Of a stretch of DNA of 64,000 nt, positions 15,444-29,600 are shown in pieces. The stretch lies in contig OZ243916.1 of assembly GCA_965213675.1 (NCBI GenBank), positions 2,912,001-2,976,000 on the forward strand. The letters run 5' to 3'. The first letter of the stretch is position 1. Every line of letters starts with the position of its first letter. The notes under the pieces are model-generated. The model was given only the letters and a program-made list of their open reading frames with translations, did not search any database and had not been told where the DNA came from. The stretch comes from an uncultured Candidatus Binatia bacterium (lineage in GTDB: Bacteria; Desulfobacterota; Binatia; UBA9968; JAJDTQ01). A program made the position numbers and the translations under genes.

Positions 15444-15722
15444 TCAATGGTGGTCCACAATACGGACTTGTTCGGGTCCGTTCCCCGTCCAACGAAAAAC
15501 AATGCGCCACAGGTCATTGATGCGTATGGAATGAAAGCCCGTCAGGTCGCCCTGAAGCGCTTCCAGTTGGTTGCCGGGCGGGACGGCCAAGTCGCCAAGG
15601 GTCTGTGCATGGTTCATTTGAACCAGTTTCCGTAGCGCCACACGCGCGATAGCGGCGAAGCGCCGGCATTTTTCTGAATAGAACAGTGTCGCAGTGTCCT
15701 TGTCGGCGAAGGATTGGATGAT
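15444..15722 (-). CDS. higB: HigB (RelE/ParE) toxin with a non-canonical ATC start, possibly inactivated
   Basis: IQSFADKDT...ALRKLVQMN...[35 protein letters not shown]...IVDHH; GGAGG upstream but first codon is ATC. Confidence 0.8.
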
Positions 15723-15823
15723 GAAACCGCAGCCCTCCAGCCGATGATGGTAAGCAACAACGGTACCATCAGGGTGCCGGACCCGACCGGACGACTGGAT
15801 TGAGCTACTCCCGACAACGGTTC

Positions 15824-16693
15824 TCACGGCGTAGCGGCGGCGGCCGTGGCCACGCCGGCGGCAACCACCGCCATCCAGCACAGCCGCCGGAACCCGATGC
15901 GGTCGCCCAGCCAGATCCGCGCGGTGACCGCGGTAACGGCGGCGAAGCTCGAGAAGCCAATGGCGGCGCCCACCCGCTCGCCGCCCCCGGAGCCGGTGAG
16001 GAACAGGCCCAGTGCCCCCGTTTCCAGAACCGCCTGCAAGAACACAAGGGGCCACGTCGTGCCGGACGGCCACGCCAGCGGGCCGCGCCGCCGCTGGATG
16101 ACCATGAAGCCCACTGCGCCGGTCAGCGCGAAGACGCGATTCAGGTAGACCGCCGGAACCGTGCCCAGCGCCGCGCCCGCCTCCTGCGCGAGGAACATGC
16201 GTAACGCCACCGACACGGCGGCGCCGAGTCCCAGAAGCGCGGTGACGCGCAGCCAGGCGCGGTCGTAGCGTTCCTTCCCTGGCTGCTCGGGTTGGGCCAG
16301 CATCGCCACTCCGCCGAAGACCGTCAACGCTGCGACCCCGTGAAGCCAGTGATAGGAATGGCCGGCCAGCACGTTCAGCGCCACGAGGATCACCGTGAAG
16401 CTCGACGTGGCTGGAGACGCCACCGTCACCGGTCCCCGGACCAGCGCGCGGAAGAGCAGCCCCAACACCGCGACGTTCAGGAAGCCGGACAACACCGAGG
16501 CACCCCAGCCCCAGGCGTTCCAGGCAGGCCAACCGCCGCTCGCCGCAAACCAGATCGTCATGACGGCCAACGGAGGCACCATGATGAGAGCGATGAGCAC
16601 AGACAGGGAGACGCGGCTCGCCGTCACGCGTGCGACGCAATCGGAAACACCGATCAAACCGGCGCCGCACAATCCCCAAGCCAGTCCATTCAT
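15824..16693 (-). CDS. DMT/EamA family transporter
   Basis: About 10 hydrophobic helices in two repeats; ALVRGPVTVASP; IWLGDRIG. Confidence 0.85.
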   Translation of the reverse strand: MNGLAWGLCGAGLIGVSDCVARVTASRVSLSVLIALIMVPPLAVMTIWFAASGGWPAWNAWGWGASVLSGFLNVAVLGLLFRALVRGPVTVASPATSSFTVILVALNVLAGHSYHWLHGVAALTVFGGVAMLAQPEQPGKERYDRAWLRVTALLGLGAAVSVALRMFLAQEAGAALGTVPAVYLNRVFALTGAVGFMVIQRRRGPLAWPSGTTWPLVFLQAVLETGALGLFLTGSGGGERVGAAIGFSSFAAVTAVTARIWLGDRIGFRRLCWMAVVAAGVATAAAATP

Positions 16694-17063: not shown

Positions 17064-18497
17064 ATGCAACCGGTAACCGACATGCGGAGCTACCTCGAGC
17101 GACTGGACGCCATGGGCGAGATCAAGCGCATCGAGGGGGCGGACCTCGACACGGACGTGGGGGCGCTCACCGAGCACATGGGGGACATCGAGTCCCAGGC
17201 GCTGCTGTTCGACGGCTTCGCGGGGTTTCCCAAGGGCTTTCGTATCGTCTCCAACCTGTTCCGCACCTGTCCGCGCTCGGCGGTGGCCATGGGCCTGCCC
17301 ACGGATGTCCGGGGTGTGGACTTCCTCCACGCGTGGCGCAAGCGCAGCCTGGAGTTCCAGCCCGTGCCGTATGAGCAGGTGGAAGGCGGGCCGGTGTTCG
17401 ACAACCAGATGGACGAGGACGAGGTGGACCTGACCCGGTTCCCCACGCCCATGTGGCACGACCTCGACGGCGGGCGCTACATCGGCACCGGGTGCGGGAT
17501 CATCACCAAGGACCCGGAGTCCGGCGGCATCAACATCGGCACCTACCGGGTGATGATTCAGGAGAAGAACAAGGTCTCGGTAAAGATGAACAAGGGCAAG
17601 CACGGGCGCCTGGCCATGGAGCGCGCCCACGCCCGCGGCGAAGCCCTGCCCGTGGCCATCACCCTGGGGCAGGAGCCCAGCGTGATGCTGTCTTCGCAAA
17701 TGCCGCTGCCGCCGTCGGTGAACGAGTACGAGTTCGCCGGCTGGATGCAGGGCAGCCCCATCCCGGTGGTGCGCGGCGCCGTCACCGGCCTGCCCATCCC
17801 GGCCAACGGCGAAGTGGTGCTGGAGGGCGAGATCCCGCCGCTGCCGCCGGAGGAGTTGCCCAAGGAGGGCCCCTTCGGCGAGTGGCCAGGCTACTACACC
17901 GAGGCCACCGAAGGGGACGTGCCGCTCATGACCGTGAAGCGGGTGTACTACCGGAACGACCCCGTCATCCTGGGCGCTCCGCCGGTGCGGCCGCCCAACA
18001 GCTACCTGCCCATCCCCCTGGGCGCCATCACGCTGTGGGAGCAGTTGGAGAAGGCCGGCATCCCGGACGTCAAGGGGGTCTGGGGCTTCGTCTACGGCGG
18101 CCAGCCCGGTCCGTTCACGGTCATCTCCATCAAGCAGCGCTACACCGGCCACGCCAAGCAGGCGCTGCTGGTGGCGGCCGGCGCCCGCGCCGGCGCCTAC
18201 GGCGGCAAGATGGTGGTGGTGGTGGACGACGACGTGGACATCACCAACCCGGGGGAGGTCATCTGGGCCATGTCCACCCGCTGCGACCCGCGCGAGGGCA
18301 TCGACATCGTGAAGAACGTGTGGGCCTCGGTGTGCGAGCCGGTCATCTCCCCCATGGACCGGGACACCAGGGGCTACGTCACCGACCGCGTGCTCATCGA
18401 CGCCTGCCGCCCATACCAGTGGATCGACCGCTTCCCGCCGGTGAATGCGTTCGAGCCGACGTACAAGGAGCAGATCGCCAAGAAGTGGGGGGTATGA
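17064..18497 (+). CDS. UbiD family (de)carboxylase
   Basis: DGGRYIGTG, NIGTYRVM, VVLEGEI, EGPFGEWPGYY, VVVVDDDVDI, WAMSTRCDP, IDACRP. Confidence 0.95.
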   Translation: MQPVTDMRSYLERLDAMGEIKRIEGADLDTDVGALTEHMGDIESQALLFDGFAGFPKGFRIVSNLFRTCPRSAVAMGLPTDVRGVDFLHAWRKRSLEFQPVPYEQVEGGPVFDNQMDEDEVDLTRFPTPMWHDLDGGRYIGTGCGIITKDPESGGINIGTYRVMIQEKNKVSVKMNKGKHGRLAMERAHARGEALPVAITLGQEPSVMLSSQMPLPPSVNEYEFAGWMQGSPIPVVRGAVTGLPIPANGEVVLEGEIPPLPPEELPKEGPFGEWPGYYTEATEGDVPLMTVKRVYYRNDPVILGAPPVRPPNSYLPIPLGAITLWEQLEKAGIPDVKGVWGFVYGGQPGPFTVISIKQRYTGHAKQALLVAAGARAGAYGGKMVVVVDDDVDITNPGEVIWAMSTRCDPREGIDIVKNVWASVCEPVISPMDRDTRGYVTDRVLIDACRPYQWIDRFPPVNAFEPTYKEQIAKKWGV

Positions 18498-18510
18498 AGG
18501 AGCGGCGCGC

Positions 18511-19134
18511 ATGAAGGCGGTTCTCTGGAGAACGCTGACGACGGCGGCGTTGGCGCTGGCGTTCGTCATGGCGCCGGCCACGGAGGCGCCCGCCCACAAG
18601 TCCGTCCTCAAGGTGGAATTTGCGGAGCGACGCGAGTTCAACCTCCTCATCGACGACTTCGGCCTCACCGACCAGAACGGCAGGCGCGTGCGGTTCGGGC
18701 AGTTCCGGGGCAAACCGGTGGTGGTCAACTTCATGTACACGTCGTGCCCGGACGTGTGCCCGCTGCTCACCGCGAGCCTCAAGATCCTGCGCGACCACAT
18801 GGAGCCGGCGGAGTCCCGGGACATCCATTTCCTGTCCATCACCACCGACCCCGAGGTGGATACCCCCGAGGTACTCAAGGCGTACAGCAAGCGTCACAAA
18901 GCGGATGCGCCCAACTGGTCGTGGCTCACGGGGAACGAGCGGGCGCTGGCGCCGGTGTGGCAGGGCTTCGGTGTGAGTGTGCAGCGCATCGCCAAGGGAC
19001 TCATCGAGCACACCACGCTGACGGTGGTGGCGGACGCCAAAGGCTATATGCGCTTCGCCTACTTCGGCTCCGCGCCGGACCCGGACGTGATGTTGCAGGA
19101 TCTGCGGGCGCTCGCCAAGGAACCGGCCACCTGA
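18511..19134 (+). CDS. SCO1/SenC family protein
   Basis: Signal peptide, FGLTDQNG, FMYTSCPDVCP, SITTDPEVDTP, IEHTT; AAGGAG RBS. Confidence 0.9.
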   Translation: MKAVLWRTLTTAALALAFVMAPATEAPAHKSVLKVEFAERREFNLLIDDFGLTDQNGRRVRFGQFRGKPVVVNFMYTSCPDVCPLLTASLKILRDHMEPAESRDIHFLSITTDPEVDTPEVLKAYSKRHKADAPNWSWLTGNERALAPVWQGFGVSVQRIAKGLIEHTTLTVVADAKGYMRFAYFGSAPDPDVMLQDLRALAKEPAT

Positions 19135-19204
19135 CGACTCGTTCAATTCCCTGCGACTCCCGGGACAGATCCGGCGCAAAGGACGCGGCTCATGGGGTAT
19201 GGCG

Positions 19205-19339
19205 CCCTTCGACCTGGCTCAGGACACGCCCTCCGACTTCGCGCCGCTGACGCGGCGCTACGCTCAGGACGAACGGAGGTGCGGTTGCCAGTCGCGGTGA
19301 GCCAGGTCAAAGGACCTTTCCCGAGCGCAGTCGAAGGGC
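19205..19339. repeat. Interspersed palindrome, family B
   Basis: CCCTTCGAC...GCTCAGGAC...CGACTTCGCGCCGCTGACGCGGCGCTACGCTCAGGACGAACGG...GTCGAAGGG; similar to 43415-43538. Confidence 0.8.
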
Positions 19340-19359
19340 TGCCGGGGTTGGATTGAACC

Positions 19360-21510
19360 GTGGGATCGCTGCTGAGCGCCATCGTATGGGAGACCGTGGG
19401 GGTCTTTTACGAGGCCTCGGTGTACCTCCTCATCGGGTTTTTCGTCGCCGGACTCTTCCACGCATACCTGCCGGCGAATCTCATTGCCCGCTACCTGGGC
19501 CGCAACGACGTGCGCTCGGTGGGGCTGGCGGCGCTGTTCGGGGCGCCCATTCCCTTGTGCTCTTGCGGCGTCCTGCCGGCGGCGTCCTCGCTGCAAAGGC
19601 AGGGAGCCGGCCGGGCGCCACTGGTATCGTTTCTGATCTCGACTCCCGAGACCGGGGTGGACTCGGTGGCCCTGACCTACGGGCTCATGGGTCCGGTGAT
19701 GGCCGTGGTGCGTCCGGTGGTGGCGGTGGTGACGGCGCTGGTGGCTGGCATCGCCGCCATCGGCGTGCGTGAGGACCAGACGGAGGGTCGCCCCTCCACC
19801 GGCGCGGCCGCGGTTTGCGCCGATGCGTGTGCGCCAGGGGCCGCCGGCAAGGGCGCATGCGATGACACGCGCGCCCCGGCCGGTGGCCAGGATCCGTGCG
19901 CCGAGACGGACGCGGCGGCTCCTTCACCGAGGCGCCGTTTCCTTCATTCGCTGGAATACGGCTTCACCTCGGTGCTGGACGACATCGCGTTGTCGCTGGT
20001 CGCCGGCATGCTGCTGACCGGGATTCTCGCGGGCCTTCTGCCCGACAACTTCTTCGACGAGGTGCTCGGCTGGGGCTCGGGGATCATGCCCATGCTGGCC
20101 ATGATCGTGCTCGGGCTGCCGTTGTACCTCTGCGCCAGCGCGTCCACCCCGGTGGCCGCCGCGCTCATGGTCAAGGGGCTCTCTCCGGGAGCGGCGCTCG
20201 TGTTCCTGCTGGTGGGGCCGGCCACCAACCTTGCCACCATGACCGTGGTGGGGCAGCTCCTGGGGCGCCGTCTTCTCGGCGTCTACATCGGCGCCATCAT
20301 CCTCGTGAGCCTGCTGGCCGGACTCCTGGTGGACGCGACCCTGGCGGATTCCATCCAGGTGGCGGGCTTCGGCGATCTCGGGCAGGAACTCGACGCGGTC
20401 TTCGCGCTGAAGGCCCTGTCGGCCGTGGGCCTGGTGCTGCTGTTGCTGCGGAGTTTCGCACGCAAGGGCTTTCGCACGGTCTGGCGCGACGCTTCGGATC
20501 AGCTTCGCCAGACCGGCCAGGCCGTCAAGGCCCTCCGTCCCGGCCTCTTGTTGCGCGGCCCGGTGCTCGCGGCGGCCGCGGCCATCGCGGCGGTGGCGTC
20601 GGTTCCGGCGTTCACCCTGGTGGTCGAGCCCGGCCAGCGCGGCATCATCCAACGCTTCGGCCGAGTGGCCGCGGCGGACCTCGAGCCCGGCCTGTACTTC
20701 CATCTGCCGGCACCCTTCGGCCGGGGGACCGCGGTGGACGTGGCGCTGGTCCGACAGGTCTCCGTGGGCTTTCGGGGCAGCGTCAACGGGCGGCGGGAGG
20801 TTGTGGACGCGCAGGCCTTCTACCTCACCGCGGACGCCAACGTCATCGACATCCGCGCGGTGGTGCAGTACCGCGTGCGCGATCCGGCGGTGTACGCCCT
20901 GGGCGTCGAGGAGACCCCCGCGGTGGTCCTGGGGCTGGCCCGGCGTGAGCTGGTGAGCCTCTTGAGCCGCAAGCCCATCGACCGGGTCTATACGGTGGAC
21001 CGGCGCGGCACCGAGAGCGAACTGCGGGACCGGTTGGCCCGGCGCCTCGCCTCCCTGGGCATCGGCAGCGAAGTTCTGGACGTGCGGCTCCTGGACGTGC
21101 ACGCGCCCGGCCGGGTCCACGACGCCTTTCGCGACGTGGCCAGCGCACTGGAGGACCGCCAGCGCGACATCCACGTAGCCACCGGGGCGGCGACCCAGTC
21201 CACCACCGCGGCCACGGGCGAGGCGGAGCGCATCATGCAACGCGCCGAGGGCCGCGCCGTGCGCGAGATGCGCCGGGCCGAGGGCCGCGCCGCCGCGTTT
21301 CGCGATACGGCGGCGGTGCACCGGGCGAGTCCGTCGGTCACCGAAGCCCGCCTCTATCTGGAAACCCTCGAGCGGTCGCTGGAGCTGCCGCGCAAGTACA
21401 TCTACATGCCCGAGGCGGACGGCGGAGGCGACGTGGATATCTGGGTCGGCGCGCCCTCCGCGGACCTCCTGAACCTGGGCGCGCCCGTGCCCCGGAGCGG
21501 GCAGAGATAG
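19360..21510 (+). CDS. SO_0444/ArsP (DUF318)-type metal permease fused to a C-terminal SPFH/HflK domain
   Basis: GAPIPLCSCGVLP, FLISTPETGVDS, PLYLCASASTPVAAAL, GPATNLAT; then VEPGQRGIIQRFG...LTADANVIDI...VHDAFRDVASA...RLYLETLE. Confidence 0.88.
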   Translation: MGSLLSAIVWETVGVFYEASVYLLIGFFVAGLFHAYLPANLIARYLGRNDVRSVGLAALFGAPIPLCSCGVLPAASSLQRQGAGRAPLVSFLISTPETGVDSVALTYGLMGPVMAVVRPVVAVVTALVAGIAAIGVREDQTEGRPSTGAAAVCADACAPGAAGKGACDDTRAPAGGQDPCAETDAAAPSPRRRFLHSLEYGFTSVLDDIALSLVAGMLLTGILAGLLPDNFFDEVLGWGSGIMPMLAMIVLGLPLYLCASASTPVAAALMVKGLSPGAALVFLLVGPATNLATMTVVGQLLGRRLLGVYIGAIILVSLLAGLLVDATLADSIQVAGFGDLGQELDAVFALKALSAVGLVLLLLRSFARKGFRTVWRDASDQLRQTGQAVKALRPGLLLRGPVLAAAAAIAAVASVPAFTLVVEPGQRGIIQRFGRVAAADLEPGLYFHLPAPFGRGTAVDVALVRQVSVGFRGSVNGRREVVDAQAFYLTADANVIDIRAVVQYRVRDPAVYALGVEETPAVVLGLARRELVSLLSRKPIDRVYTVDRRGTESELRDRLARRLASLGIGSEVLDVRLLDVHAPGRVHDAFRDVASALEDRQRDIHVATGAATQSTTAATGEAERIMQRAEGRAVREMRRAEGRAAAFRDTAAVHRASPSVTEARLYLETLERSLELPRKYIYMPEADGGGDVDIWVGAPSADLLNLGAPVPRSGQR

Positions 21511-21520
21511 TGGAATCACC

Positions 21521-22474
21521 ATGACCAAACCCGTCGTCGCGGTCCTCGTTCTGGCGCTGCTCCTCTTCGCCGCCGCCACTTCGTTCGTGGTGGTGGATGA
21601 GAAGAGCCACGCGGTCATCACCCAGTTCGGCAAGCCGGTGTCGGTGCTGAGCGACGCCGGCCTCTACTTCAAGCTGCCGGTGCCGTTCCAGCGGGCCAAC
21701 CTGCTGGACAAGCGCATCCTCATCACCAACACGCGGGAGACGGAACTGCTCACCGCGGACAAGAAGAACGTCCTGGTCTCCACCTATATCTCCTGGAAGA
21801 TCGCCGATCCGGTGCGCTACCTGGCGGCGCTGCGCCGCCGGGACTTCGCGGAGAACCGGCTTGCCGCGCTGGTGCAGTCCGAGTTGGGCAGCGCGCTGGG
21901 CGGCCGGCCCTTCAGCACGATTCTGGGAATTTCCGGCAACGACGCCAGCTTGGCCGAGTTGGAGGCATCGGTGGAGCGGGCCGTGGCCCGGGTGGCGCGG
22001 AAGGACCTGGGCCTCGAGGTGGTGAGCCTGGGGGTGACGCGTCTCATCTTCCCGCAACAGAACCTGGACAGCGTGTTCGCGCGCATGCGCGCGGAGCGCG
22101 CGCGCATCGCCCGGGGCTTTCGCTCGGAGGGGCGCGCCGAGGCGCAGAAGATTGCCGCCCGTGCCGAGAAGGAACGCGCGCGCATCATCGCCGAGGCCGA
22201 GGCCACCGCCACCAGGCTGCGCGGCCGCGGCGAGGCCGAGGCGGCGCGCGTCTACGCCGAGGCCTACGAGGGTCACGCCGGGTTCTATCGTTTTCTGCGC
22301 ACGCTGGAAGCCTACAAGAAGGTGCTGAACGAGAAGACCACACTGGTCCTGCCCGCGGATTCACCGTTCCTGGAAATCCTGACCTCCAGGATCCCTGGCA
22401 CGCCGGAGCGGGAGCCGTCGGAGCGGGAGTCCGGCGTTGAGCCGCCGCCCACGCGGGGAGAGGTGCCCCGGTGA
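21521..22474 (+). CDS. hflC: HflC-like SPFH protein
   Basis: AVITQFGKP, GLYFKLP, LLTADKKNV, VFARMRAERARIA, RSEGRAEA, GEAEAARVYAEAY, FYRFLRTLEAY. Confidence 0.9.
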   Translation: MTKPVVAVLVLALLLFAAATSFVVVDEKSHAVITQFGKPVSVLSDAGLYFKLPVPFQRANLLDKRILITNTRETELLTADKKNVLVSTYISWKIADPVRYLAALRRRDFAENRLAALVQSELGSALGGRPFSTILGISGNDASLAELEASVERAVARVARKDLGLEVVSLGVTRLIFPQQNLDSVFARMRAERARIARGFRSEGRAEAQKIAARAEKERARIIAEAEATATRLRGRGEAEAARVYAEAYEGHAGFYRFLRTLEAYKKVLNEKTTLVLPADSPFLEILTSRIPGTPEREPSERESGVEPPPTRGEVPR

Positions 22475-23382
22475 CGGGACGGGGGCGACGATTCCCGGTT
22501 TTCCTTGGCTGTGCCGCCGTGCTCGCTGGCTGGCTTGCCTTGGGAATTTACAGCGTCGAATCCGACGAGAGCGCGGTGGCCTACTTCCTCGGCAAGGCCG
22601 TGGGCCGCGACGTGCTGCCGGGCATCCACTGGAACCCGCCTTGGCCGCTGGGCCGGGTGGTGGTGGCTCGGACGGCTACGAACTTTCTCATGCCGGTGGA
22701 GCACGAGGCGCCGGCGGACAGCGTGACCGGCGCGTCCGAGTCCCTGTGGCTTCTGGGGGACACCAACGTCGTCGTCGGCCGGGTGGGCATCCAGTACAGC
22801 ATCCGCAGCCTGACGCGCTTCGAGGTGTCGCACGAGGATCCGCGGGAACTGTTGCGCCGGGCCGGGCGGCGGATCGTGACACGGTTTCTCGCCAGCGAGA
22901 GCGTGGACGCCGCCCTCACCACGCGCCGGAACGATCTGCTGGACGCGGTGCAGCGGCAAGTGCAGGCGATACTCGATCATCACGGATCGGGCATCGAAAT
23001 CCAGTCCGTGAACGTCGAGGCGCTGGCCCCTCCGGAGCAGGGCGGCGTGCGGCAGGCCTTCCAGGAGGTGCAGAGCGCGCTGGCGGACAAGGAACGCGTG
23101 GTGGACGAGGCCCGCGCCGACCGCGCCCAGACCCTCGCCGAAGCAGAGGGGGAGGCCGAGCACCGCGTGACCCAGGCCGAGGCCGCGCGCCACCGGCGGG
23201 TGGAGATCGCCAAGGGCGAAGGGGAACGTTTCCGTCGCTTGGCCCGGGAGCACCGCAAGACCCCGCGACTCACCGAGGAACGGCTCTACCTGGAAACCAT
23301 CGAGGAGATCCTGCCGCGCATGGACACCTACGTGGTCCAGTCGGCCCCCGGCGGCAAGGTGAATCTGCGCGTGGTCAGGTGA
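22471..23382 (+). CDS. hflK: HflK-like SPFH protein
   Basis: GIYSVESDE, PGIHWNPPWP, GDTNVV, VRQAFQEVQSA, AKGEGERF, ERLYLETIEEILP; GTGA overlap with the hflC stop. Confidence 0.88.
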   Translation: MTGRGRRFPVFLGCAAVLAGWLALGIYSVESDESAVAYFLGKAVGRDVLPGIHWNPPWPLGRVVVARTATNFLMPVEHEAPADSVTGASESLWLLGDTNVVVGRVGIQYSIRSLTRFEVSHEDPRELLRRAGRRIVTRFLASESVDAALTTRRNDLLDAVQRQVQAILDHHGSGIEIQSVNVEALAPPEQGGVRQAFQEVQSALADKERVVDEARADRAQTLAEAEGEAEHRVTQAEAARHRRVEIAKGEGERFRRLAREHRKTPRLTEERLYLETIEEILPRMDTYVVQSAPGGKVNLRVVR

Positions 23383-23448
23383 AACTGGTGTCGTGTCCGG
23401 CAGAGGCAATTTACGCCTTATTGATATTAGTTGATCAACTACGCTCGT

Positions 23449-23481
23449 TTGACAGGCGAACATTTTGAGAGTAGTTTCTCA
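23449..23481 (+). promoter_or_regulatory. Sigma70 promoter with an overlapping palindromic operator (Fur/Zur-like)
   Basis: TTGACA (23449) - 17 bp - TAGTTT (23472); TGAGA-GTAGTT-TCTCA palindrome covers the -10. Confidence 0.6.
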
Positions 23482-23518
23482 TTAATCCATCATCCATGCG
23501 GGCCGAGGAGGAATCGAC

Positions 23519-24652
23519 ATGAAGACAGTGGGACGGATTCTGTTTGTAATGGTCGTGGGTCTTTTGACAGGGGCCCATCCGGCGTTCGCCAGCGAGAAGG
23601 GCGTGAGTGTGGTGGCCAGTATCCTTCCTGTCGCCTATCTGGCGCAGGAGTTGGGCGGGGAGCGCGTGCGCGTGGACCTGCTGGTGCCACCGGGGGCAAG
23701 TCCGCACACGTTCGAGCCGGTGCCGAGCGACATGATCAAGCTGCGACGCGCCCGGTTGTTCTTGCGGGTCGGCGCCAATCTGGACGGATGGACCGACAGG
23801 CTCCGGGGAGCGGCTTCCGATGGACTGGAGACGTTGACCCTGATGACGTTGCCCGGCATCAAGCCTCTTGAGGGGGGTCACGATCATGACCACGGCCACG
23901 GTCATGGCGAGAAGAAAGCGGAAGCACACGACGACCATGGGCACGGCGAGAGGCAGGCGAAGAAACACGACGACCATGGGCACGACCACGGCGAGAAGAA
24001 GGCGGAGGCGCATGACGACCATGGGCACGGTCATGACGAGAAGAAAGCGGAAGCGCATGACGACCACGGCCACGGCGACAAACATGCGGAGAAGCACCAC
24101 GGAGAAGCGGAGGCGGCGGGTGGCGAAGGGTTGGACCCGCACTTCTGGCTGGATCCGATCCGGGTTCGGGATGCGGTCGTCCCGGTCATTGTCGAGCATC
24201 TGGTGGAGGCGGATCCGGCCGGCAAGGAGTACTACGAGCAACGCGGCAAGGACTTCCGCCAACGCCTGACGGCGCTGGATGTCAAAGTCCGGGGGGAGCT
24301 GGCCAAGGCCAAATCCAGGAAGTTCGTGGCGTTCCACAGTGCCTGGGCCTACTTTTCCGAGCGATACGATCTCGAAGAGGTGGCGGTGGTGCAGGAGTTC
24401 GCCGGCGAAGAACCAACGCCGCGGGAGTTGGCCGCGCTGGTGAAGGGGGCGCGGGAGGCCGGGATCCGCAGTATCCTGGTGGAGCCGCAACTCAGCCCGC
24501 GGGTGGCGCAGACCATCGCCAGCGAGTTTGGCGGCGGGACGGCGCTGGTGGATCCCCTGGGGGACTCCGGCGATCCGGCGCGAGCGAGCTACGAAGGGTT
24601 GATGCTGTTCAACGCGCGAGCGTTCGCGCAGGCTCTGGGGGGGCAGAATTGA
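23519..24652 (+). CDS. znuA: Zn ABC transporter substrate-binding protein with a long repetitive His-rich loop
   Basis: GASPHTFEP, LDPHFWLDP, AFHSAWAYF, VEPQ; repeated HDDHGHG..EKKAEA; GAGGAGG RBS. Confidence 0.9.
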   Translation: MKTVGRILFVMVVGLLTGAHPAFASEKGVSVVASILPVAYLAQELGGERVRVDLLVPPGASPHTFEPVPSDMIKLRRARLFLRVGANLDGWTDRLRGAASDGLETLTLMTLPGIKPLEGGHDHDHGHGHGEKKAEAHDDHGHGERQAKKHDDHGHDHGEKKAEAHDDHGHGHDEKKAEAHDDHGHGDKHAEKHHGEAEAAGGEGLDPHFWLDPIRVRDAVVPVIVEHLVEADPAGKEYYEQRGKDFRQRLTALDVKVRGELAKAKSRKFVAFHSAWAYFSERYDLEEVAVVQEFAGEEPTPRELAALVKGAREAGIRSILVEPQLSPRVAQTIASEFGGGTALVDPLGDSGDPARASYEGLMLFNARAFAQALGGQN

Positions 24653-25443
24653 CAGAACTCAACCACGGAGTCGTGGTGGGGCTGAGTGGCGTGTCGGTGG
24701 AGTTGGGTGGCCGAAGCGTCCTGCACGACATCAACTTCAACGTGCACGAGGGCGGTTTCGTGGGCATCGTGGGTCCCAACGGAGCGGGCAAGACCACGCT
24801 GCTGCGCACGATTCTCGGTCTCGTGCCAGTGGTGAGCGGCAGAGTGGAAGTGTTCGGGCGTCCCCCGGGCCGCAACGCCTCCCAAGCCATCGGCTACGTG
24901 CCGCAGCGCCAGAGCATCGCCAGCAACTTCCCGGCCACGGTGGGGGACATGGTGATGATGGGACGGTTGCGGCATTTGGGGCTCATGCGCTTCCCCGGCC
25001 GAAAGGACTGGCAGCGGGTGGACGACAGCCTGCTCCTCGTGGGCATGCTGGACCGCAGAGACCGTGCCGTGGGGCGCCTGTCCGGAGGCGAGCAGCGCCG
25101 GGTCATGCTGGCCCAGGCGCTGTGCGCCAGCACCCGCCTGCTGGTGCTCGACGAGCCCACGGTGGGGCTCGACCTTCCCGCCGAGCACGAGTTCTACGCG
25201 CTGCTCCGAAAGCTCATCCGCGATCTGAGCCTGACCATCGTGGCGGTATCCCATGACCTGGTGGCCTTGGCCGGCGAGACCGACGAGCTGATCTGCATCA
25301 ACCACCGCATGCACATCCACGGCAACGCCGAGGACGTGATTCACAGCCACGCCATTCGCGAGGCCTATTGCTGCGAGTTCGACTTCCTGGCCGGCGAGTT
25401 GGCCCATCACGAGGGCCACGACCACACGGCGCCGGTTTCCTGA
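24649..25443 (+). CDS. znuC: Zn ABC transporter ATP-binding protein
   Basis: GPNGAGKTT, IGYVPQR, LSGGEQRR, LDEPTVGLD, SHDL; C-terminal CCEF...HHEGHDH tail. Confidence 0.9.
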   Translation: MTELNHGVVVGLSGVSVELGGRSVLHDINFNVHEGGFVGIVGPNGAGKTTLLRTILGLVPVVSGRVEVFGRPPGRNASQAIGYVPQRQSIASNFPATVGDMVMMGRLRHLGLMRFPGRKDWQRVDDSLLLVGMLDRRDRAVGRLSGGEQRRVMLAQALCASTRLLVLDEPTVGLDLPAEHEFYALLRKLIRDLSLTIVAVSHDLVALAGETDELICINHRMHIHGNAEDVIHSHAIREAYCCEFDFLAGELAHHEGHDHTAPVS

Positions 25444-25487
25444 ACACCCCGCGGTCACGCGTCGCACGTCATCCGACGGCCTCCCCC

Positions 25488-26288
25488 ATGTTCGAATTCG
25501 AATTCATGCAACGCGCCTTGGCGGCGGCGATCCTCGTGGGCCTGCTGTGCGGTATTCTGGGCTTCTTCGTGGTGCTCCGGCGTTTGGCGTTCATCGGCGT
25601 GGGCATTTCCCATTCCGCCATCGGCGGGGTGGCCATCGGCATCCTGGCAAGTTGGAACCCGCTGCTTACCGGCGCTGTCTTTGCGGTTGCCGTGGCCTTG
25701 GGCATCGCTCTGGTGAGCCAGACGGATCACATCGGCGAGGACACGGTCATCGGCGTCTTCTTCTCCGGCTCCATGGCGTTGGGGATCGTGCTCTTCAGCA
25801 TGAAGAGCGGCTACCAGCAGGATCTCTTCAGCTATCTGTTCGGCAACGTATTGGCGATCTCCACCGAGGAGCTGGTGGCGCTGGCCGCGGTGAGCGCGGT
25901 GATCATGGCGGTCGTCGTGCTCACGTTCAAGGAACATCTGCTGATCTCCTTTGACGAGGAAGTGGCCTCCGCCTACGGCCACAAGGTGGTGGTCCTCAAC
26001 GTGCTGCTGCTGGTGATGCTGGCCCTGACCGTGGTCATCGGGGTGCGCTTGGTGGGACTGTTGCTGATCCAGGCCCTCCTGGTGGTGCCCGCGGCCGTGG
26101 CCGCGCTGTGGGCAACCAACTTCCGCGGGCAGGTGCTTCTGGCGGCGTCCATCGGATCGCTGTCGGGCGTCACCGGCCTCGTGCTGGCCTATCAACTGGA
26201 CATCGCCGCGGGCGGCGCCATCGTGCTGGTGGCGGTGTCGCTTTTCTTCGTTGCCCTGCTCGCCCGCCTCCTGGCCGGGCGTGTATAG
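25488..26288 (+). CDS. znuB: Zn ABC transporter permease
   Basis: FMQRALAAA, VVLRRLAFIGVGISHSA, EDTVIGV, YLFGNVLAI, SFDEEVA. Confidence 0.9.
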   Translation: MFEFEFMQRALAAAILVGLLCGILGFFVVLRRLAFIGVGISHSAIGGVAIGILASWNPLLTGAVFAVAVALGIALVSQTDHIGEDTVIGVFFSGSMALGIVLFSMKSGYQQDLFSYLFGNVLAISTEELVALAAVSAVIMAVVVLTFKEHLLISFDEEVASAYGHKVVVLNVLLLVMLALTVVIGVRLVGLLLIQALLVVPAAVAALWATNFRGQVLLAASIGSLSGVTGLVLAYQLDIAAGGAIVLVAVSLFFVALLARLLAGRV

Positions 26289-26654: not shown

Positions 26655-29600
26655 CTACCACCGCGCGGTCGCTTCGAGCCCCATGGTGTGCTCCGGCTCC
26701 GTCCAGTCGCTCTCCCGGCGCGTCCCCTTCAGCCCGAAGGAGACATCGGGCGCGTTGGCGCGGGTCGCCGGGGTGAGACGCCACCCCACGCTCCACCCCG
26801 AAGCCGGTCTCGGCATCGCCGCCGTCCTGGCGCATGCCCAGCTCCAGCTTGGGCGTCACATGGCTGCCCCGCGCCAGCGCGGCCTTCCAGCTTCCGGTGG
26901 CTCCGAGGTCACCGCCAGGGCGGGACCCGATCCTTCCGCCGGGGGCGCGATCACGTCGCCGCGCAGGCCAGCCGCCGCCATGGTCCAGGAGATGTCGGAG
27001 GTGAGGGAACCGCCTACCTCCGGCTCGAGCGTCACGTCGCCGGCGCCATAGCCCACCGCGCCCCAGAGCTTCAGCCGCTCCGAGACCCGGAGCGCGGCAT
27101 AGGGAACCGCCGCCGTCAGCGACGCCTCCACGTCGCCATCGCCCTCCCGCACGGCGCCGCTGCACACGACCCTCCGCGCTTCGGCATCCGGAGGTTGAGG
27201 GCAGCCTACGACATCCGTGCCGTTGCCTGCCCCGGACCCCGCCCCGCTGTCGGTATAGCCGCCATCCCCGCTGCTCCGCATCAGGGTCAGTCCGGCCAGC
27301 CAGTTGCCGCGCCCATAGTCGGCTCCCAGCATGGCCGTGGTGGCCTCGCCGTCGAGCGAGAACGTCCCCTCGCGGCCGTCGAAGCTCGACTGCGCTGCCC
27401 GGCCCCAGAAGGCCACGCTGCCGCCCATGCCGTCCTTCTCCCCGGTCGCCGTGAAACTGCTGCCCAGCAAGGCTTCCCGGGCCGTCATCGAGTAGGACTG
27501 CGCGCCGCTACTGCCGAAAGCGAAGCCATGAGTGTCATGGCCCAATGCCGATCCCGCACCGCCGGCGCCGAAACGGCCGCGGGCGACATCGGTCTGCACC
27601 AGCCGGCCAGTGCCGGACAGGCTGCCAGGGGCAGCATTTCTGCTCGCCGCGCCAACCGATCCGTCGGGGCCTGCCTGCGAGCCGGAGGAGCGGGGATCGA
27701 AGTTCAGCGCCTGTCCGGCGATGGTGCCCTGCACCCCGGCGTCGCGCGACGCCGCGATGCGCCCGGCTATGCCGTCCAGTGCCTGTTCCGCCGTCGTGCG
27801 ACCGAAGCGCGCCAGCCATGCCGCCGGCATCGGGTCCGAGTTGGTGATGGTGCCCACGGCAACCCCGTCCGCAATCGACACCGACACCCCGGGCGGACCG
27901 TTCACGGACGCGTCGAACAGCACCATCTCGAAGGTCTCCGGACCCTCGTCATGGCTGTCGTTGTAGAGGCGGACGTGGATCAGCGTTTCCGTCTGCCCCG
28001 GCCTGAACCGGGCCCGCAGCCGCCAGGACCGCTTCCACGCCAGGTAGTCCTGGCCCGCCACGGCCGACACCGGCGTTGAATCCCGCGTCGCGTAGTAGAC
28101 GACGACCGGCCAGTCCACCGGCTCGCTCAACGTCACCTTGAAATTCCCCGTTATTCCGTTCTCCTTGAGCGTGGCATCGGCAATCGAGATCGTTGGACCC
28201 GAGGACGCCGCATCGTTGTCGGACACCGCCACCGTGGCCGCGTTGTCCGGCGATGCCGCCACGGTGTAGCCGGTGCCGGTATCGACAGTTGCCGTGATCG
28301 AGCCGTCCGGCTCGTCCGTGCCGTCATCCACCGTGGTGACCTCGAAGGTGGCGCTGCCCGTGACCGGGATGGTGACCGTCCGCGATCCGGTCGCGCCCGA
28401 GGCGGCGAAGTCGCCGCTCTGGCCGACGGTCAGGGTCACGTCGAGCGGTGCGGCTGGCACCGGGCTGGCCGTGACCGTGAAGGAAGCCGAGGCACCTTCC
28501 GCCACTCCGCTGCCGGCGGCGATGCGTACCACCGGCTCGTCATTGTCGCGCACCGCCACCGCGGCGCTGCCCTTGCCCGTGGCCACGGTATAGCCCGTGC
28601 CCGTGCCGAGGGTGACGCTCACCGAGCCGTCGGCCTCGTCCGCCGCATCGTCCAGCGTGGCCACGGAGAGGTCGACGCTGGCCTCTCCCGCCGCCAGTGT
28701 CACCGTCCGGTGACCCGCGCCGGGGGCGTCCAGGTACTCGCCGCTCTGGGCGACGGTGTAGGTGACCGTGAGGTCGGTGGCCGGAGCCGGGTTGGCGGTG
28801 AGGGTGAAGGTGGCCTGGCCGCCCTCGTCCACGGCAGAGCCCGCCGAGAGGCTCAGTTCGGGGGTGGTGGGCGTCGCCGGTTGGACCTCCGCCGGTTCCG
28901 GCTGTTTCTGCGGTGCCGCCGCCAGGCATTGGAGCGCCGGCGCCACCGGCGCCCAGCGCTGCAGGCCGCGGTCCGCCTGCGCCTGCGCCTCGGCAACGGT
29001 CATCGGGTGGTTGCTGTAGCTGTTCTCCTCCCCGAAGGCGGCCAGCACGCGGCTCCAGCGCTCGACATGGCCCGGTGACGTCCGCCAGGTCTCGCCCGCA
29101 GCCTTCTGGGCGTCGGCCAGCAGGGCGTCGGAGACGCAGGCGGGTGTCTCAGCCTGCGCCGCCTGTGCGTCTTGTTGCGGCGAGCCCTGTCCGCCGCCGA
29201 CGGTGATGGTGACCCAGTCGAAGGCACGGCCGAGACCTTTGTAGCTCAGGATGCCGACCACTACTGGATTTGCGGCCAGCCTGAAGTGCAGGACCGTGGG
29301 CGCGGCCGGGGCGGTGAAGGTGGGTGCGGCGGCGGAGCTGCCGCCAGGCAGTACGTCATCGCCGATGATTGTGTTCGAAGCCGGGCCGTCCACCTGCCAC
29401 CAGTGAAGGCGGACATTGTCGCCCCAGGGGCCGCCGGCACCAGCGGTACCCGACAGGGTGACCTGCGCCCCGGCGGCCACCGTCTGGTCGGGGCCGGCAT
29501 CAGGGGCCGCCGGCCTGAACGGTACGCCGGGGTTTTCGGGCAGCCACAGGGCGTGCAGACTCCTGGTCCTGCGAAAGATATTCTCCGGCAGCGCCTGCAG

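What the first reader, a model, noticed from the sequence alone, without database searches (positions are those of the whole stretch)
19360..26288. Metal permease fused to an SPFH domain, plus HflC, HflK and a Zn ABC importer: candidate SPFH-caged metal transport system
Seen: a 716-aa protein joins a two-repeat SO_0444/ArsP-type permease (PLCSCGVLP and PLYLCASASTP motifs, with a 4-Cys linker CADAC...C...C) to a full HflK-like SPFH domain. An hflC-like gene follows 10 bp later, then an overlapping second hflK-like gene, then znuA/C/B-like genes; a SCO gene lies upstream. There is no ftsH, hflX or purA context in the window. Known: HflK/HflC form a large cage around FtsH, and SPFH proteins scaffold membrane microdomains. 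Inference: the cage has been repurposed so that a Cys-based Cu/Zn permease is a covalent subunit, creating a membrane compartment for metal transport or hand-off, or coupling metal status to proteolysis. I know of no characterised system with this layout. This is my top candidate.
Basis: partly seen in the sequence, partly recalled or inferred. Interest (0 to 1): 0.87.

Follow-up and report, generated by a model that had tools for sequence, protein, structure and literature searches.

The report
Metal permease fused to SPFH cage
A zinc/copper-type membrane transporter is permanently joined to an HflK-like scaffold protein and always travels with two more scaffold genes, forming a widespread but unstudied module that may show how bacteria wrap a transporter in a protein cage.

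Summary
Window 19360-21510 encodes a 716-aa protein: an SO_0444-family Cys-motif permease (NCBIfam 354.5 bits, cut-off 300) joined by a cytoplasmic linker helix and one TM helix to an HflK-like periplasmic SPFH/coiled-coil part. An HflC-like gene follows after 10 bp, and a second HflK-like gene overlaps that one by 4 bp.

The fusion is not an artefact:
- All 120 listed database homologues carry both domains.
- In 27 species-level loci from at least 8 named phyla, the HflC-like gene follows in 26 of 26 testable loci and the second HflK-like gene in 24 of 24.
- None of 53 unfused SO_0444 loci has an SPFH neighbour.

The genome also holds canonical hflKC and a single ftsH, both elsewhere. The three module SPFH proteins form their own co-diverging clades.

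Zinc importers (znuACB or ZIP) adjoin 8 of the 27 loci. SCO is a neighbour only within the genus, and the 4-Cys loop is lineage-specific. Three congeners have secondarily lost exactly the SPFH part and both SPFH genes but kept the permease, so the cage is an accessory layer.

Function remains inferred. My reading is an HflK/C-type dome with a tethered elevator-type Zn/Cu permease. I found no publication describing it. It is a new variant of known kinds.

The parts
18445..19134 (+). SCO1/SenC-family periplasmic thiol/copper protein. It is a neighbour only within this genus. The true start may be the internal Met at residue 23.
   Evidence: Pfam SCO1-SenC 1.4e-26. It is syntenic in 3 congeners. 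There is no tblastn hit of 45 bits or more in the 27 fusion loci.
19360..21510 (+). Fusion protein (716 aa): SO_0444/ArsP_1 permease joined to an HflK-like SPFH subunit ('fusK').
   Evidence: The AF2 model has mean pLDDT 81.7.
19360..20466 (+). Permease domain (residues 1-369). It has two inverted repeats. Each repeat has a broken helix carrying Cys (C67/C69; C258) and a helical hairpin (85-110; 276-301). One extra TM helix follows (345-369).
   Evidence: NF033936 at 354.5 bits. Invariant C67, S68, C69 and C258 in 62 of 62 fusions and in 30 of 30 mixed fused and unfused sequences. AF2 gives pLDDT 82.7 and pTM 0.81. The fold matches ArsB, YdaH, TRAP-QM, DASS and CNT transporters at Z 13.4-8.1, and the next row drops to 4.9.
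19762..19926 (+). Variable central loop (residues 135-189), rich in metal-ligand residues. It carries 4 Cys in this lineage and is inferred to be cytoplasmic.
   Evidence: pLDDT is below 50 for residues 155-183. Across 62 sequences, C+H is 9.4% in the loop against 2.1% elsewhere, and D+E is 25% against 9.4%. 60 of 62 loops have at least 2 Cys/His. The Cys positions are not conserved.
20470..20613 (+). K/R-rich cytoplasmic linker helix (residues 371-391) followed by the HflK-type TM helix (400-418).
   Evidence: Hydropathy and charge count: 8 K/R in residues 363-394. AF2 helices. Residues 387-673 align to E. coli HflK 76-345.
20614..21378 (+). Periplasmic SPFH1/2 domains (residues 419-583) and coiled-coil helices (584-673). 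It carries the clade-specific residues H581, H587 and E598; W695 lies in the tail.
   Evidence: Band_7. HflK 7vhp_E at 4.1e-42. Foldseek 7vhq_E at 1.4e-12. Clade-specific invariants.
21521..22474 (+). HflC-like subunit ('C2'), with one N-terminal TM helix.
   Evidence: TIGR01932 at 190.6 bits against a cut-off of 134.4. TM helix at residues 5-23. It follows the fusion in 26 of 26 loci whose contig continues.
22471..23382 (+). Second, unfused HflK-like subunit ('K3'), with one N-terminal TM helix.
   Evidence: TIGR01933 at 151.7 bits against a cut-off of 159.4. It is present in 24 of 24 loci whose contig continues past C2. It groups with canonical HflK (98*) but as its own group.
23466..23481 (.). 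Palindrome TGAGAGTAGTTTCTCA downstream of a TTGACA. It is a candidate Zur/Fur-family operator of the znuA promoter.
   Evidence: The same position and motif occur upstream of znuA in L123, L124, L125 and L126. It is the only site in the window. The count alone is not significant: chance mean 0.98.
23519..24652 (+). ZnuA-type periplasmic metal-binding protein with a long His/Asp-rich loop.
   Evidence: Pfam ZnuA 3.1e-73. It scores below the NCBIfam ZnuA and AztC cut-offs. The loop is read.
24649..25443 (+). ABC ATPase of the metal importer (ZnuC/AztA/MntA-like).
25488..26288 (+). ABC-3 permease of the metal importer (ZnuB/AztB-like). The start is taken at Met41 of the listed ORF 25368-26288.
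   Evidence: Pfam ABC-3 8e-70, matching from residue 44.

Best explanation
The locus encodes a conserved three-gene module. Its products most likely assemble into a heteromeric HflK/HflC-type SPFH dome on the periplasmic face of the inner membrane, made of three subunit types: fusK, C2 and K3.

One subunit type (fusK) carries an SO_0444-type transporter at its cytoplasmic N-terminus, in place of the disordered tail of ordinary HflK. This transporter is Cys-thiolate based and elevator-fold. By family analogy it moves Zn(II)/Cu(I) out of the cytoplasm. The unfused K3 probably fills the remaining HflK positions, so that not every position carries a bulky permease.

The SPFH assembly is an accessory layer. 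It corrals, anchors or gates the tethered permeases in a fenced membrane patch. It is not the housekeeping FtsH modulator, which the genome encodes separately.

Shown here:
- the domain architecture;
- conservation and strict co-occurrence of the three genes;
- their distinctness from canonical hflKC;
- dispensability of the SPFH layer for keeping the permease;
- recurrent neighbourhood with Zn importers.

Inferred:
- assembly into one cage;
- transport substrate and direction;
- that fusK-specific periplasmic His581/His587/Glu598 bind metal;
- what the cage does to the permease.
For: Architecture:
- Topology is an 8-crossing permease, a K/R-rich cytoplasmic linker, one TM helix and a periplasmic SPFH part, as in E. 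coli HflK.
- Residues 387-673 align to HflK 76-345, E 4.1e-42. Foldseek's top hits are HflK chains 7vhq_E and 9cz2.

Permease:
- It scores above the SO_0444 equivalog cut-off.
- C67-S68-C69 and C258 are invariant in 62 of 62 fusions.
- SO_0444 itself is required for growth under ZnSO4 or CuCl2 stress (PMC3219624, passages read).
- The fold matches ArsB and 12 other elevator-type transporters at Z 13.4-8.1, then drops to 4.9.

The module is real and widespread:
- All 120 listed homologues (47-100% identity) carry both Pfam domains.
- 27 full-length loci come from 8 named phyla plus 5 unnamed, including two cultured Bradyrhizobium.
- C2 follows in 26 of 26 testable loci and K3 in 24 of 24.
- 0 of 53 unfused SO_0444 loci have an SPFH neighbour.

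Distinct from housekeeping HflKC:
- The own genome has canonical hflK and hflC at C1:3.76 Mb.
- 5 of 5 other fusion genomes searched also hold a separate adjacent SPFH pair.
- In the tree of 96 SPFH rows, K3 is one group (85), canonical HflK is one group (92), fusK lies outside both, and sub-clades match across fusK, C2 and K3.

fusK-only invariants: H581 26/26, H587 24/26, E598 26/26 and W695 26/26. These differ in K3 and in canonical HflK.

Binding: complex prediction (fusK 395-690 + C2 + K3, K3 scored) gave weak support. The score was 0.56 against a best control of 0.00. The mark was reached by 58 of 80 solved complexes and 2 of 110 mismatched pairs. At 0.60 or under it was reached by only 7 of the 80 solved complexes and by both passing mismatches. 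Runs agree in at least 92% of contacts, and the partner's pLDDT is at least 77. HflK/C complexes are solved, so the pass may come from memory.

Metal context:
- znuACB is adjacent in L013, L014, L015, L037 and L031. A ZIP gene is adjacent in L018, L019 and L023. This makes 8 of 27 loci.
- K3 and the importer gene abut or overlap in L014, L015 and L018.

Precedent: human stomatin domes encapsulate AQP1 and UT-B (PMC12407830, abstract read; PDB 9zd2 appears).
Against: - No experiment or expression data exist. No RNA run holds the locus.
- Assembly rests on homology and on a weak complex score that may reflect memory of solved HflK/C structures.
- The permease survives intact without the SPFH layer in 3 of 24 congeners. 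The cage is therefore not needed for basic permease function.
- A paralogous second module in G027 lacks the H581 and H587 equivalents. A His/His/Glu metal site cannot be general to all such fusions.
- Adjacency to Zn importers sits oddly with an efflux role. It is seen in only 8 of 27 loci, several of them related.
- In this genus znuACB has its own promoter and operator.
- No metal-sensing regulator recurs next to the module.
- Whether FtsH joins the assembly could not be tested.
Confidence: 0.55

Rival explanations
1. FtsH-coupled turnover device. The three SPFH proteins form an HflK/C-like cage that still houses the cell's single FtsH. Fusing the permease to a cage subunit keeps it permanently beside the protease, so transporter abundance can be set by conditional degradation that depends on metal status.
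For: - The closest solved relatives are HflK and HflC of the FtsH-HflKC complex.
- C2 passes the hflC equivalog cut-off, and it is not cleanly separated from canonical HflC in the tree.
- K3 is sister to canonical HflK at 98*.
- HflK/C is known to control FtsH proteolysis of membrane proteins (PMC12048511, passages read).
Against: - No ftsH lies in any of the 27 neighbourhoods, and none is near this locus.
- The genome keeps a separate canonical hflKC, so a second FtsH cage would compete for the single FtsH.
- fusK and K3 both score below the hflK equivalog cut-off.
- My attempt to check the published HflK-FtsH contact residue was inconclusive.
Confidence: 0.2
2. Generic stabiliser or microdomain anchor. 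The SPFH part and its two partners only stabilise, oligomerise or localise the permease, or provide the fixed scaffold that an elevator-type transporter needs. The cage has no metal-specific role, and the periplasmic His/Glu residues are structural.
For: - SPFH proteins scaffold many unrelated membrane proteins. Stomatin with AQP1/UT-B is one example.
- The elevator fold needs an immobile scaffold (fold match; the mechanism is general knowledge).
- The second paralogous module lacks the His pair.
- The permease persists without the SPFH layer in 3 congeners.
- No common metal neighbour is found across all loci.
Against: - H581, H587 and E598 are invariant or nearly so across 26 fusions from many phyla, and differ in K3 and canonical HflK.
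- Zn-importer genes, or a gene for a signal-peptide-bearing FmdA-like hydrolase, recur beside the module in 14 of 27 loci.
- The need for two extra, co-diverging subunit types is more than a simple anchor would require.
Confidence: 0.2
3. Artefact: a lost stop codon, a misassembly or a gene-calling error joined a permease gene to an hflK gene in this assembly.
For: A few short database proteins match only the SPFH part. P0130 starts at the linker and P0146 starts in the last permease helix. Split or truncated forms may therefore exist.
Against: - All 120 listed homologues are fused.
- 27 independent species-level loci are fused with one continuous frame.
- 14 of 24 congeners are fused with no internal stop.
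- The linker helix and TM helix are modelled with confidence.
Confidence: 0.01

Closest known systems
E. coli HflK/HflC cage with FtsH (PDB 7vhp, 7wi3, 9cz2)
   Same: - One TM helix, then periplasmic SPFH1/2 and coiled-coil helices.
- Adjacent K-type and C-type genes.
- Residues 387-673 align to HflK 76-345.
- C2 passes the hflC equivalog cut-off.
   Different: - There are three subunit types instead of two.
- The disordered cytoplasmic N-tail of HflK is replaced by a roughly 370-residue permease.
- fusK and K3 score below the hflK equivalog cut-off.
- They form separate clades from the canonical pair kept in the same genome.
- There is no ftsH, hfq or hflX-type context in the 27 loci. No ftsH appears. 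I did not search for hflX or hfq by name.
- fusK has its own invariant His/His/Glu/Trp residues.
SO_0444 of Shewanella oneidensis (Cu/Zn efflux permease; Pfam ArsP_1, NCBIfam NF033936)
   Same: It scores above the family cut-off, and it has the CSC motif and the second-repeat Cys. SO_0444 mutants are sensitive to Zn and Cu (PMC3219624).
   Different: - SO_0444 is unfused and sits with a ZntR-like regulator.
- Here the permease is fused to an SPFH subunit.
- Pfam on 8 flanking ORFs of the window returned no regulator-family match.
- The neighbours include Zn importers.
- 0 of 53 unfused relatives have SPFH neighbours.
Human stomatin dome enclosing aquaporin-1 or urea transporter UT-B (PMC12407830; PDB 9zd2)
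   Same: An SPFH oligomer is associated with a specific channel or transporter. The stomatin chain is a Foldseek hit of the model.
   Different: - That association is non-covalent, uses a homo-oligomeric dome, and sits on the cytoplasmic face in a eukaryote.
- Here the link is covalent, the assembly is presumably hetero-oligomeric, and it faces the periplasm.
- I read only the abstract.
SPFH-NfeD operon pairs (e.g. QmcA-YbbJ, PDB 8z5g)
   Same: A bacterial SPFH protein is encoded with a dedicated membrane partner. QmcA is a weak sequence and fold hit.
   Different: - The partner here is a transporter, and it is fused rather than separate.
- The SPFH type is HflK/C (periplasmic), not the stomatin type.
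- No NfeD family appears among the top 25 neighbour families.
ArsB and other elevator-type transporters of the ion-transporter superfamily (PDB 10tp, 4r0c, 8b01, 4f35)
   Same: The predicted fold has inverted repeats, two helical hairpins and two broken helices. Z is 13.4-8.1 over 246-299 aligned residues.
   Different: - Sequence identity is 6-14%.
- The domain is smaller (about 330 residues).
- The substrate site is built from Cys thiolates at the helix breaks.
- Z values in this range can arise for helical bundles, so this shows a shared fold and does not establish membership.

Membership tests
SO_0444 family Cu/Zn efflux transporter (NF033936) | Whole-protein score above the curated equivalog cut-off | tested here: met
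   354.5 bits against a cut-off of 300, residues 14-364.
SO_0444 family Cu/Zn efflux transporter (NF033936) | Cys-Ser-Cys motif in the first repeat, and a conserved Cys in the second repeat | tested here: met
   C67, S68, C69 and C258 are invariant in 62 of 62 fusions and in 30 of 30 fused plus unfused relatives. The motif's significance is described in the preprint 10.1101/2022.07.06.499078 (passages read).
SO_0444 family Cu/Zn efflux transporter (NF033936) | Confers tolerance to excess Zn and Cu (efflux) | not testable with these tools
   Known only for SO_0444 itself (PMC3219624).
SO_0444 family Cu/Zn efflux transporter (NF033936) | Operon with a ZntR/MerR-type metal regulator, as in Shewanella | tested here: not met
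   Pfam on 8 flanking ORFs of the window returned no regulator-family match (UbiD, HigB-like and LRR/Calx-beta; the rest had no match), and SCO lies directly upstream. No MerR family appears among the top 25 neighbour families of the 27 loci. This feature is a context of the type member and does not define the family.
HflK (TIGR01933 equivalog) | Score above the curated cut-off | tested here: not met
   fusK scores 146.8 bits and K3 scores 151.7 bits against a cut-off of 159.4. The genome's canonical HflK scores 286.6 bits.
HflK (TIGR01933 equivalog) | N-in single TM helix, periplasmic SPFH domains and coiled coil, with an adjacent hflC partner | tested here: met
HflK (TIGR01933 equivalog) | Forms a complex with FtsH and modulates it | not testable with these tools
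   The only FtsH lies about 710 kb away. The contact-residue check was inconclusive.
HflC (TIGR01932 equivalog) | Score above the curated cut-off | tested here: met
   P0002 scores 190.6 bits against a cut-off of 134.4. In the tree, C2 and canonical HflC are not cleanly separated.
SPFH/Band_7 cage-forming proteins | SPFH domain followed by long coiled-coil helices, as used for ring and dome assembly | tested here: met
   Band_7 hits all three proteins. AF2 models helices 584-656 and 658-673. Foldseek matches HflK, stomatin, prohibitin, erlin and flotillin chains.
SPFH/Band_7 cage-forming proteins | Subunits bind one another in a ring | tested here: inconclusive
   Complex prediction gave weak support: 0.56 against a best control of 0.00. 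This is possibly from memory of solved HflK/C structures.
ZnuABC-type (cluster A-I) zinc ABC importer | ZnuA-fold binding protein, ABC-3 permease and ABC ATPase in one operon | tested here: met
   Pfam ZnuA 3.1e-73, ABC-3 8e-70 and ABC_tran 2.6e-29.
ZnuABC-type (cluster A-I) zinc ABC importer | Zinc specificity (equivalog score; His-rich loop; Zur control) | tested here: inconclusive
   It scores below the NCBIfam ZnuA (154.3 against 268) and AztC (155.5 against 350) cut-offs. A long His/Asp-rich loop is present. A conserved palindrome lies at the promoter, but no regulator was identified.
Ion-transporter superfamily elevator transporters (ArsB, AbgT, DASS, TRAP-QM, CNT) | Inverted repeats with two re-entrant hairpins and broken helices | tested here: inconclusive
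   13 chains of these families score Z 13.4-8.1, and the next row scores 4.9. The tool warns that helical models can reach such Z values by arrangement alone. Sequence identity is 6-14%.

The most novel reading that the evidence does not exclude
The module builds a dedicated periplasmic metal nanocompartment. It is an FtsH-independent HflK/C-type dome made of three subunit types. Elevator-type thiolate Zn/Cu exporters are covalent wall subunits that discharge metal into the enclosed chamber. There a fusK-specific His581/His587/Glu598 site holds or senses the metal, for protected hand-off to periplasmic clients. In different lineages the candidate clients are ZnuA-type binding proteins, SCO, or the signal-peptide-bearing FmdA-like hydrolase encoded inside the module. 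This would be the first SPFH cage with a transport function built into its own shell.
Probability: 0.15. Interest if true: 0.88.

Novelty: new variant of a known kind. Interest (0 to 1): 0.68.

Why it matters
SPFH cages (HflK/C, prohibitin, stomatin, flotillin, erlin) have recently been shown to be closed or nautilus-like domes. What they do to the membrane proteins inside them is still an open question. In this module evolution has hard-wired the client to the cage. A metal transporter of known type is a covalent part of an HflK-like subunit. The module has a fixed set of two partner subunits, is conserved from Myxococcota to Bradyrhizobium, and has natural cage-less alleles in sister species.

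That gives a genetically simple bacterial system for three questions. Does the client sit inside or outside the fence? Does an SPFH dome gate, stabilise or compartmentalise a transporter? Can HflK/C-type cages work without FtsH?

It also adds an unrecognised layer to bacterial zinc and copper homeostasis. Current annotation calls these proteins either 'Cu/Zn efflux transporter' or 'HflK', which hides the fusion.

Tried and rejected
2. The look-up of sequencing runs listed no RNA holder. Four holders from one study hold the DNA.
3. FtsH contact test. The paper PMC12048511 quotes HflK Arg191 contacting FtsH residues 62-64. In the HMMER alignments to 7vhp_E I could not match that number to an Arg with certainty: Arg185 and Arg193 are the nearest by my count. 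I dropped the test.
4. Foldseek on the whole model returned only SPFH chains at E<=0.001 and nothing for the permease part. The permease was therefore folded alone and searched with VIA-align.
5. Sequence search of the PDB found no solved relative of the permease part.
6. Search for stand-alone fusK-type SPFH proteins ('shorter' search). It gave 91 hits, and 18 have 42% identity or more. Most are on contigs under 4.1 kb and are probably cut.
7. My first gene-calling pass by longest ORF picked antisense ORFs in these high-GC loci. I replaced it with a GC3-contrast filter, which is still imperfect.
8. The inverted-repeat search of the two intergenic regions found nothing at its settings. The znuA operator was seen only by comparing five loci.
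9. The pattern count for that operator is not above chance: 2 strand-matches of one site against a chance mean of 0.98.
10. No K3-specific invariant residues were found, and only N83 is fully invariant (24/24) among the three C2-specific positions found.
11. Literature. No paper describing an ArsP/SO_0444-SPFH fusion turned up in four searches:
   - 'SPFH, HflK, permease, fusion' (5 papers, none relevant by title or abstract);
   - 'PF03773, PF01145' (0 papers);
   - SPFH operon terms;
   - UPF0718/YraQ/DUF318/ArsP with HflK/SPFH (none of the 15 listed holds both kinds of term).
   Hinderhofer 2009 (PMC2636767) has no occurrence of 'permease' or 'fused'.

Full report
OBSERVATION

- The 716-aa product of 19360-21510 has Pfam ArsP_1 (residues 16-324) and Band_7 (421-609).
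- It passes the NCBIfam equivalog 'SO_0444 family Cu/Zn efflux transporter' at 354.5 bits against a cut-off of 300.
- Its C-terminal part scores 146.8 bits on hflK, against a cut-off of 159.4.
- The next gene starts after a 10-bp gap and passes the hflC equivalog (190.6 against 134.4).
- The third gene overlaps the second by 4 bp and is HflK-like (151.7 bits, just under the cut-off).
- A ZnuA/ABC ATPase/ABC-3 permease set follows, and an SCO1/SenC gene precedes.

ANATOMY OF THE FUSION

Hydropathy and charge, together with an AlphaFold2 model (mean pLDDT 81.7), give this order:
- a permease of about 370 residues;
- a K/R-rich cytoplasmic helix (371-391);
- one TM helix (400-418);
- SPFH domains (419-583);
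- long coiled-coil helices (584-673);
- a disordered tail.

Residues 387-673 align to E. coli HflK residues 76-345 (E 4.1e-42). The top Foldseek hits are HflK chains. The permease therefore replaces the cytoplasmic N-tail of an HflK. By the positive-inside rule the SPFH part faces the periplasm, as in HflK. This topology is inferred.

Folded alone (pLDDT 82.7, pTM 0.81), the permease matches 13 elevator-type transporters: ArsB, YdaH, TRAP-QM, VcINDY-like, CNT, Pho90 and NaS1. Z runs from 13.4 to 8.1 over 246-299 residues, and the next row falls to 4.9. The tool cautions that helical models can reach such Z values.

The invariant Cys67-Ser-Cys69 and Cys258 sit at the breaks of the two broken helices.

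The central loop (135-189) is poorly modelled and not conserved in sequence. It is always rich in Cys/His (9.4% against 2.1% in the rest) and in Asp/Glu (25% against 9.4%). 60 of 62 sequences have at least two Cys/His in the loop. The '4-Cys linker' is this lineage's version of that loop.

IS IT REAL AND HOW WIDE?

A search of 5.8 billion proteins gave 1314 hits among 8000 scored. All 120 listed hits (47-100% identity, 638-780 aa) carry both Pfam domains. Their source names are either 'SO_0444 family Cu/Zn efflux transporter' or 'HflK protein'.

A scan of one genome per species returned 80 loci.
- 27 hold a full-length fusion. By phylum: Myxococcota 5, Pseudomonadota 5 (including the cultured Bradyrhizobium erythrophlei GAS478 and B. 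australiense WSM 1791), Planctomycetota 4, Gemmatimonadota 2, Acidobacteriota 2, Rokuibacteriota 2, Eiseniibacteriota 1, Spirochaetota 1, unnamed 5.
- 53 hold unfused SO_0444 permeases.

In the fusion loci an HflC-like gene follows directly wherever the contig continues (26 of 26; L032 ends inside the fusion). A second HflK-like gene follows wherever the contig continues further (24 of 24; L016 and L026 end in C2). Apparent frame breaks occur in L038 and L039. None of the 53 unfused loci has an SPFH neighbour at 50 bits or more. The unit is therefore a three-gene module, and the SPFH partners are tied to the fused form.

NOT THE HOUSEKEEPING HflKC

The window's genome has seven Band_7 matches:
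- the three in this module;
- two singletons;
- an adjacent pair at C1:3.76 Mb.

That pair scores 286.6 bits on hflK and 246.7 bits on hflC. Five other fusion genomes each also hold a separate adjacent SPFH pair. The genome has one FtsH, about 710 kb away.

I built a quick maximum-likelihood tree of 96 SPFH rows (SH-aLRT only). Two frameshifted pieces of L039, rows with envelopes under 180 aa and duplicate rows were left out. The tree shows the following:
- An HflC side (97*) and an HflK side (100*).
- On the HflK side, K3 plus canonical HflK form a group (98*).
- Within that group, K3 is one group (85) and canonical HflK is one group (92).
- fusK lies outside them, unresolved at the base.
- The same sub-clades recur in fusK, C2 and K3, so the module is inherited as a unit.
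- C2 is not cleanly separated from canonical HflC.

Against K3 and canonical HflK, fusK alone has invariant H581 (26/26), H587 (24/26), E598 (26/26) and W695 (26/26). The first three lie at the SPFH2/coiled-coil junction on the periplasmic side. That they form a metal site is my inference.

A complex prediction of fusK(395-690) + C2 + K3 gave weak support. The score was 0.56 against a best control of 0.00, and the calibration counts are given in the For line. It may reflect memory of solved HflK/C complexes.

NEIGHBOURHOOD

I clustered the neighbours of the 27 loci and ran Pfam on them. 85 of 124 candidate ORFs were scanned, chosen as the nearest ones. The recurrent neighbours are:
- znuACB in 5 loci. 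It is downstream in L013, L014, L015 and L037, abutting or overlapping K3 in L014 and L015. It is upstream in L031.
- A ZIP transporter in 3 loci (L018, L019, L023). It starts 2 bp after K3 in L018.
- An FmdA/AmdA-family gene plus an extra upstream HflC-like gene in 7 loci (L023, L026-L029, L032, L039).
- An Fe/Mn-SOD gene plus a TPR gene in 4 related loci.

The FmdA-like protein of Bradyrhizobium has a signal-peptide-like N-terminus. Its best solved relative is a putative acetamidase/formamidase (5ubu).

No ftsH and no recurrent metal regulator were seen. Related lineages share synteny, so these counts are not independent events.

WITHIN THE GENUS

Of 24 other species of the genus:
- 14 have the full fusion (79-89% identity);
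- 3 (G009, G010, G018) have only the permease (361-375 aa ORFs, about 75% identity);
- 7 have neither, and one of these is only 76% complete.

In 16 genomes of other families of the order, no fusion was found with this query.

In the three permease-only species the locus is UbiD-SCO-permease-znuACB. DNA similarity to the window stops at 20458-20518 and resumes near 23570. G009 still encodes the first part of the fusion-specific linker before its stop. In a tree of 36 rows the three unfused proteins nest inside the fused genus clade (99*), with fused outgroups. The SPFH part, C2 and K3 were therefore lost secondarily while the permease stayed intact.

Five congeners carry a second, paralogous complete module about 12 kb away. 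In G027 it is an 840-aa fusion plus an HflC-like and an HflK-like gene. That module is 32% identical, keeps the E598 and W695 equivalents, and lacks the two His.

REGULATION

Upstream of znuA, five loci of the genus share a TTGACA followed by the palindrome TGAGA-N6-TCTCA (window 23466-23481). It is the only such site in the window, and the count alone is not above chance. This looks like a Zur/Fur-family operator, which is my inference. It means that in this genus znuACB is its own unit.

The SCO-fusion spacer is 225 bp in the window and holds a palindromic repeat element. The element is also present in L124 and L126. The spacer is only 55-65 bp in L123 and L125.

WHAT IT MOST LIKELY IS

It is a heteromeric HflK/C-type periplasmic SPFH assembly with a tethered thiolate-based Zn/Cu permease. 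SO_0444 is needed under Zn and Cu stress (PMC3219624). The CSC motif is discussed in 10.1101/2022.07.06.499078.

The cage is an accessory layer for the permease. Natural cage-less alleles exist, and the cell keeps ordinary HflKC and a single distant FtsH. I rate this reading at about 0.55. The rivals are an FtsH-coupled turnover device (0.2) and a purely structural anchor (0.2). An artefact is excluded.

The closest precedents are the HflK/C-FtsH complex and the non-covalent enclosure of AQP1 and UT-B by human stomatin (PMC12407830, abstract).

I found no publication on this fusion or module. Supplements were closed and earlier scan notes were unavailable.

VERDICT

This is a real, conserved and uncharacterised architecture, best classed as a new variant of known kinds. 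Its mechanism is open and can be tested directly.

Noticed in passing
window 23466-23481, and upstream of znuA in L123, L124, L125 and L126: A conserved TTGACA followed by the palindrome TGAGA-N6-TCTCA at the znuA promoter. It is a candidate Zur/Fur-family operator, and no such site lies upstream of the fusion gene.
   Followed up: partly
window about 19200-19345 (SCO-fusion spacer); also L124 and L126: A palindromic repeat element with arms such as CCTTCGAC...GCTCAGGACGAACGG. It sits in the spacer in some species, while the spacer is only 55-65 bp without it in L123 and L125. It looks like a REP/MITE-type insertion.
   Followed up: no
L126:4969-9685 (G027); also G013, G020, G022 and G023: A second, paralogous complete module about 12 kb from the first: an 840-aa ArsP_1+Band_7 fusion, an HflC-like gene and a 429-aa HflK-like gene. 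It is 32% identical to the first and lacks the His pair of the main clade.
   Followed up: partly
L023, L026, L027, L028, L029, L032 and L039 (e.g. L027:7767-9894): A five-gene variant of the module in Alpha- and Betaproteobacteria and Rokuibacteriota. An extra HflC-like gene and a signal-peptide-bearing FmdA/AmdA-family (acetamidase/formamidase-like) gene sit directly upstream of the fusion.
   Followed up: partly
L048:1551-2552: An unfused SO_0444-type permease match with an in-frame TGA in its Cys-rich central loop (context CG*PS). It may be a selenocysteine codon or a sequencing error. Selenoprotein members of this family are reported for the CSC motif (preprint read).
   Followed up: no
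window 15444-16679 (-): A 411-aa ORF whose last 90 or so residues match the HigB-like RelE toxin domain (3.3e-13). The ORF is probably over-extended upstream of a small toxin gene.
   Followed up: no
window 26856-30431 (-): A 1191-aa protein with leucine-rich repeats, a Calx-beta domain and a weak LapA-domain match. It lies immediately downstream of the importer genes on the opposite strand.
   Followed up: no
window 17064-18497 (+): A UbiD-family decarboxylase gene directly upstream of SCO. It is 92-94% identical in three congeners, far more conserved than the metal genes beside it.
   Followed up: no
G000:C1:618571-618942 (outside the window): A second, partial ArsP_1 match (profile positions 13-135, 191-aa open frame). 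It may be a fragment or a half-size relative of the permease.
   Followed up: no
window 39067-39564 (-): An AAA-domain ORF (375-aa open frame) gives a sub-threshold FtsH-family hit (90.6 bits against a cut-off of 600). It is not an FtsH.
   Followed up: no
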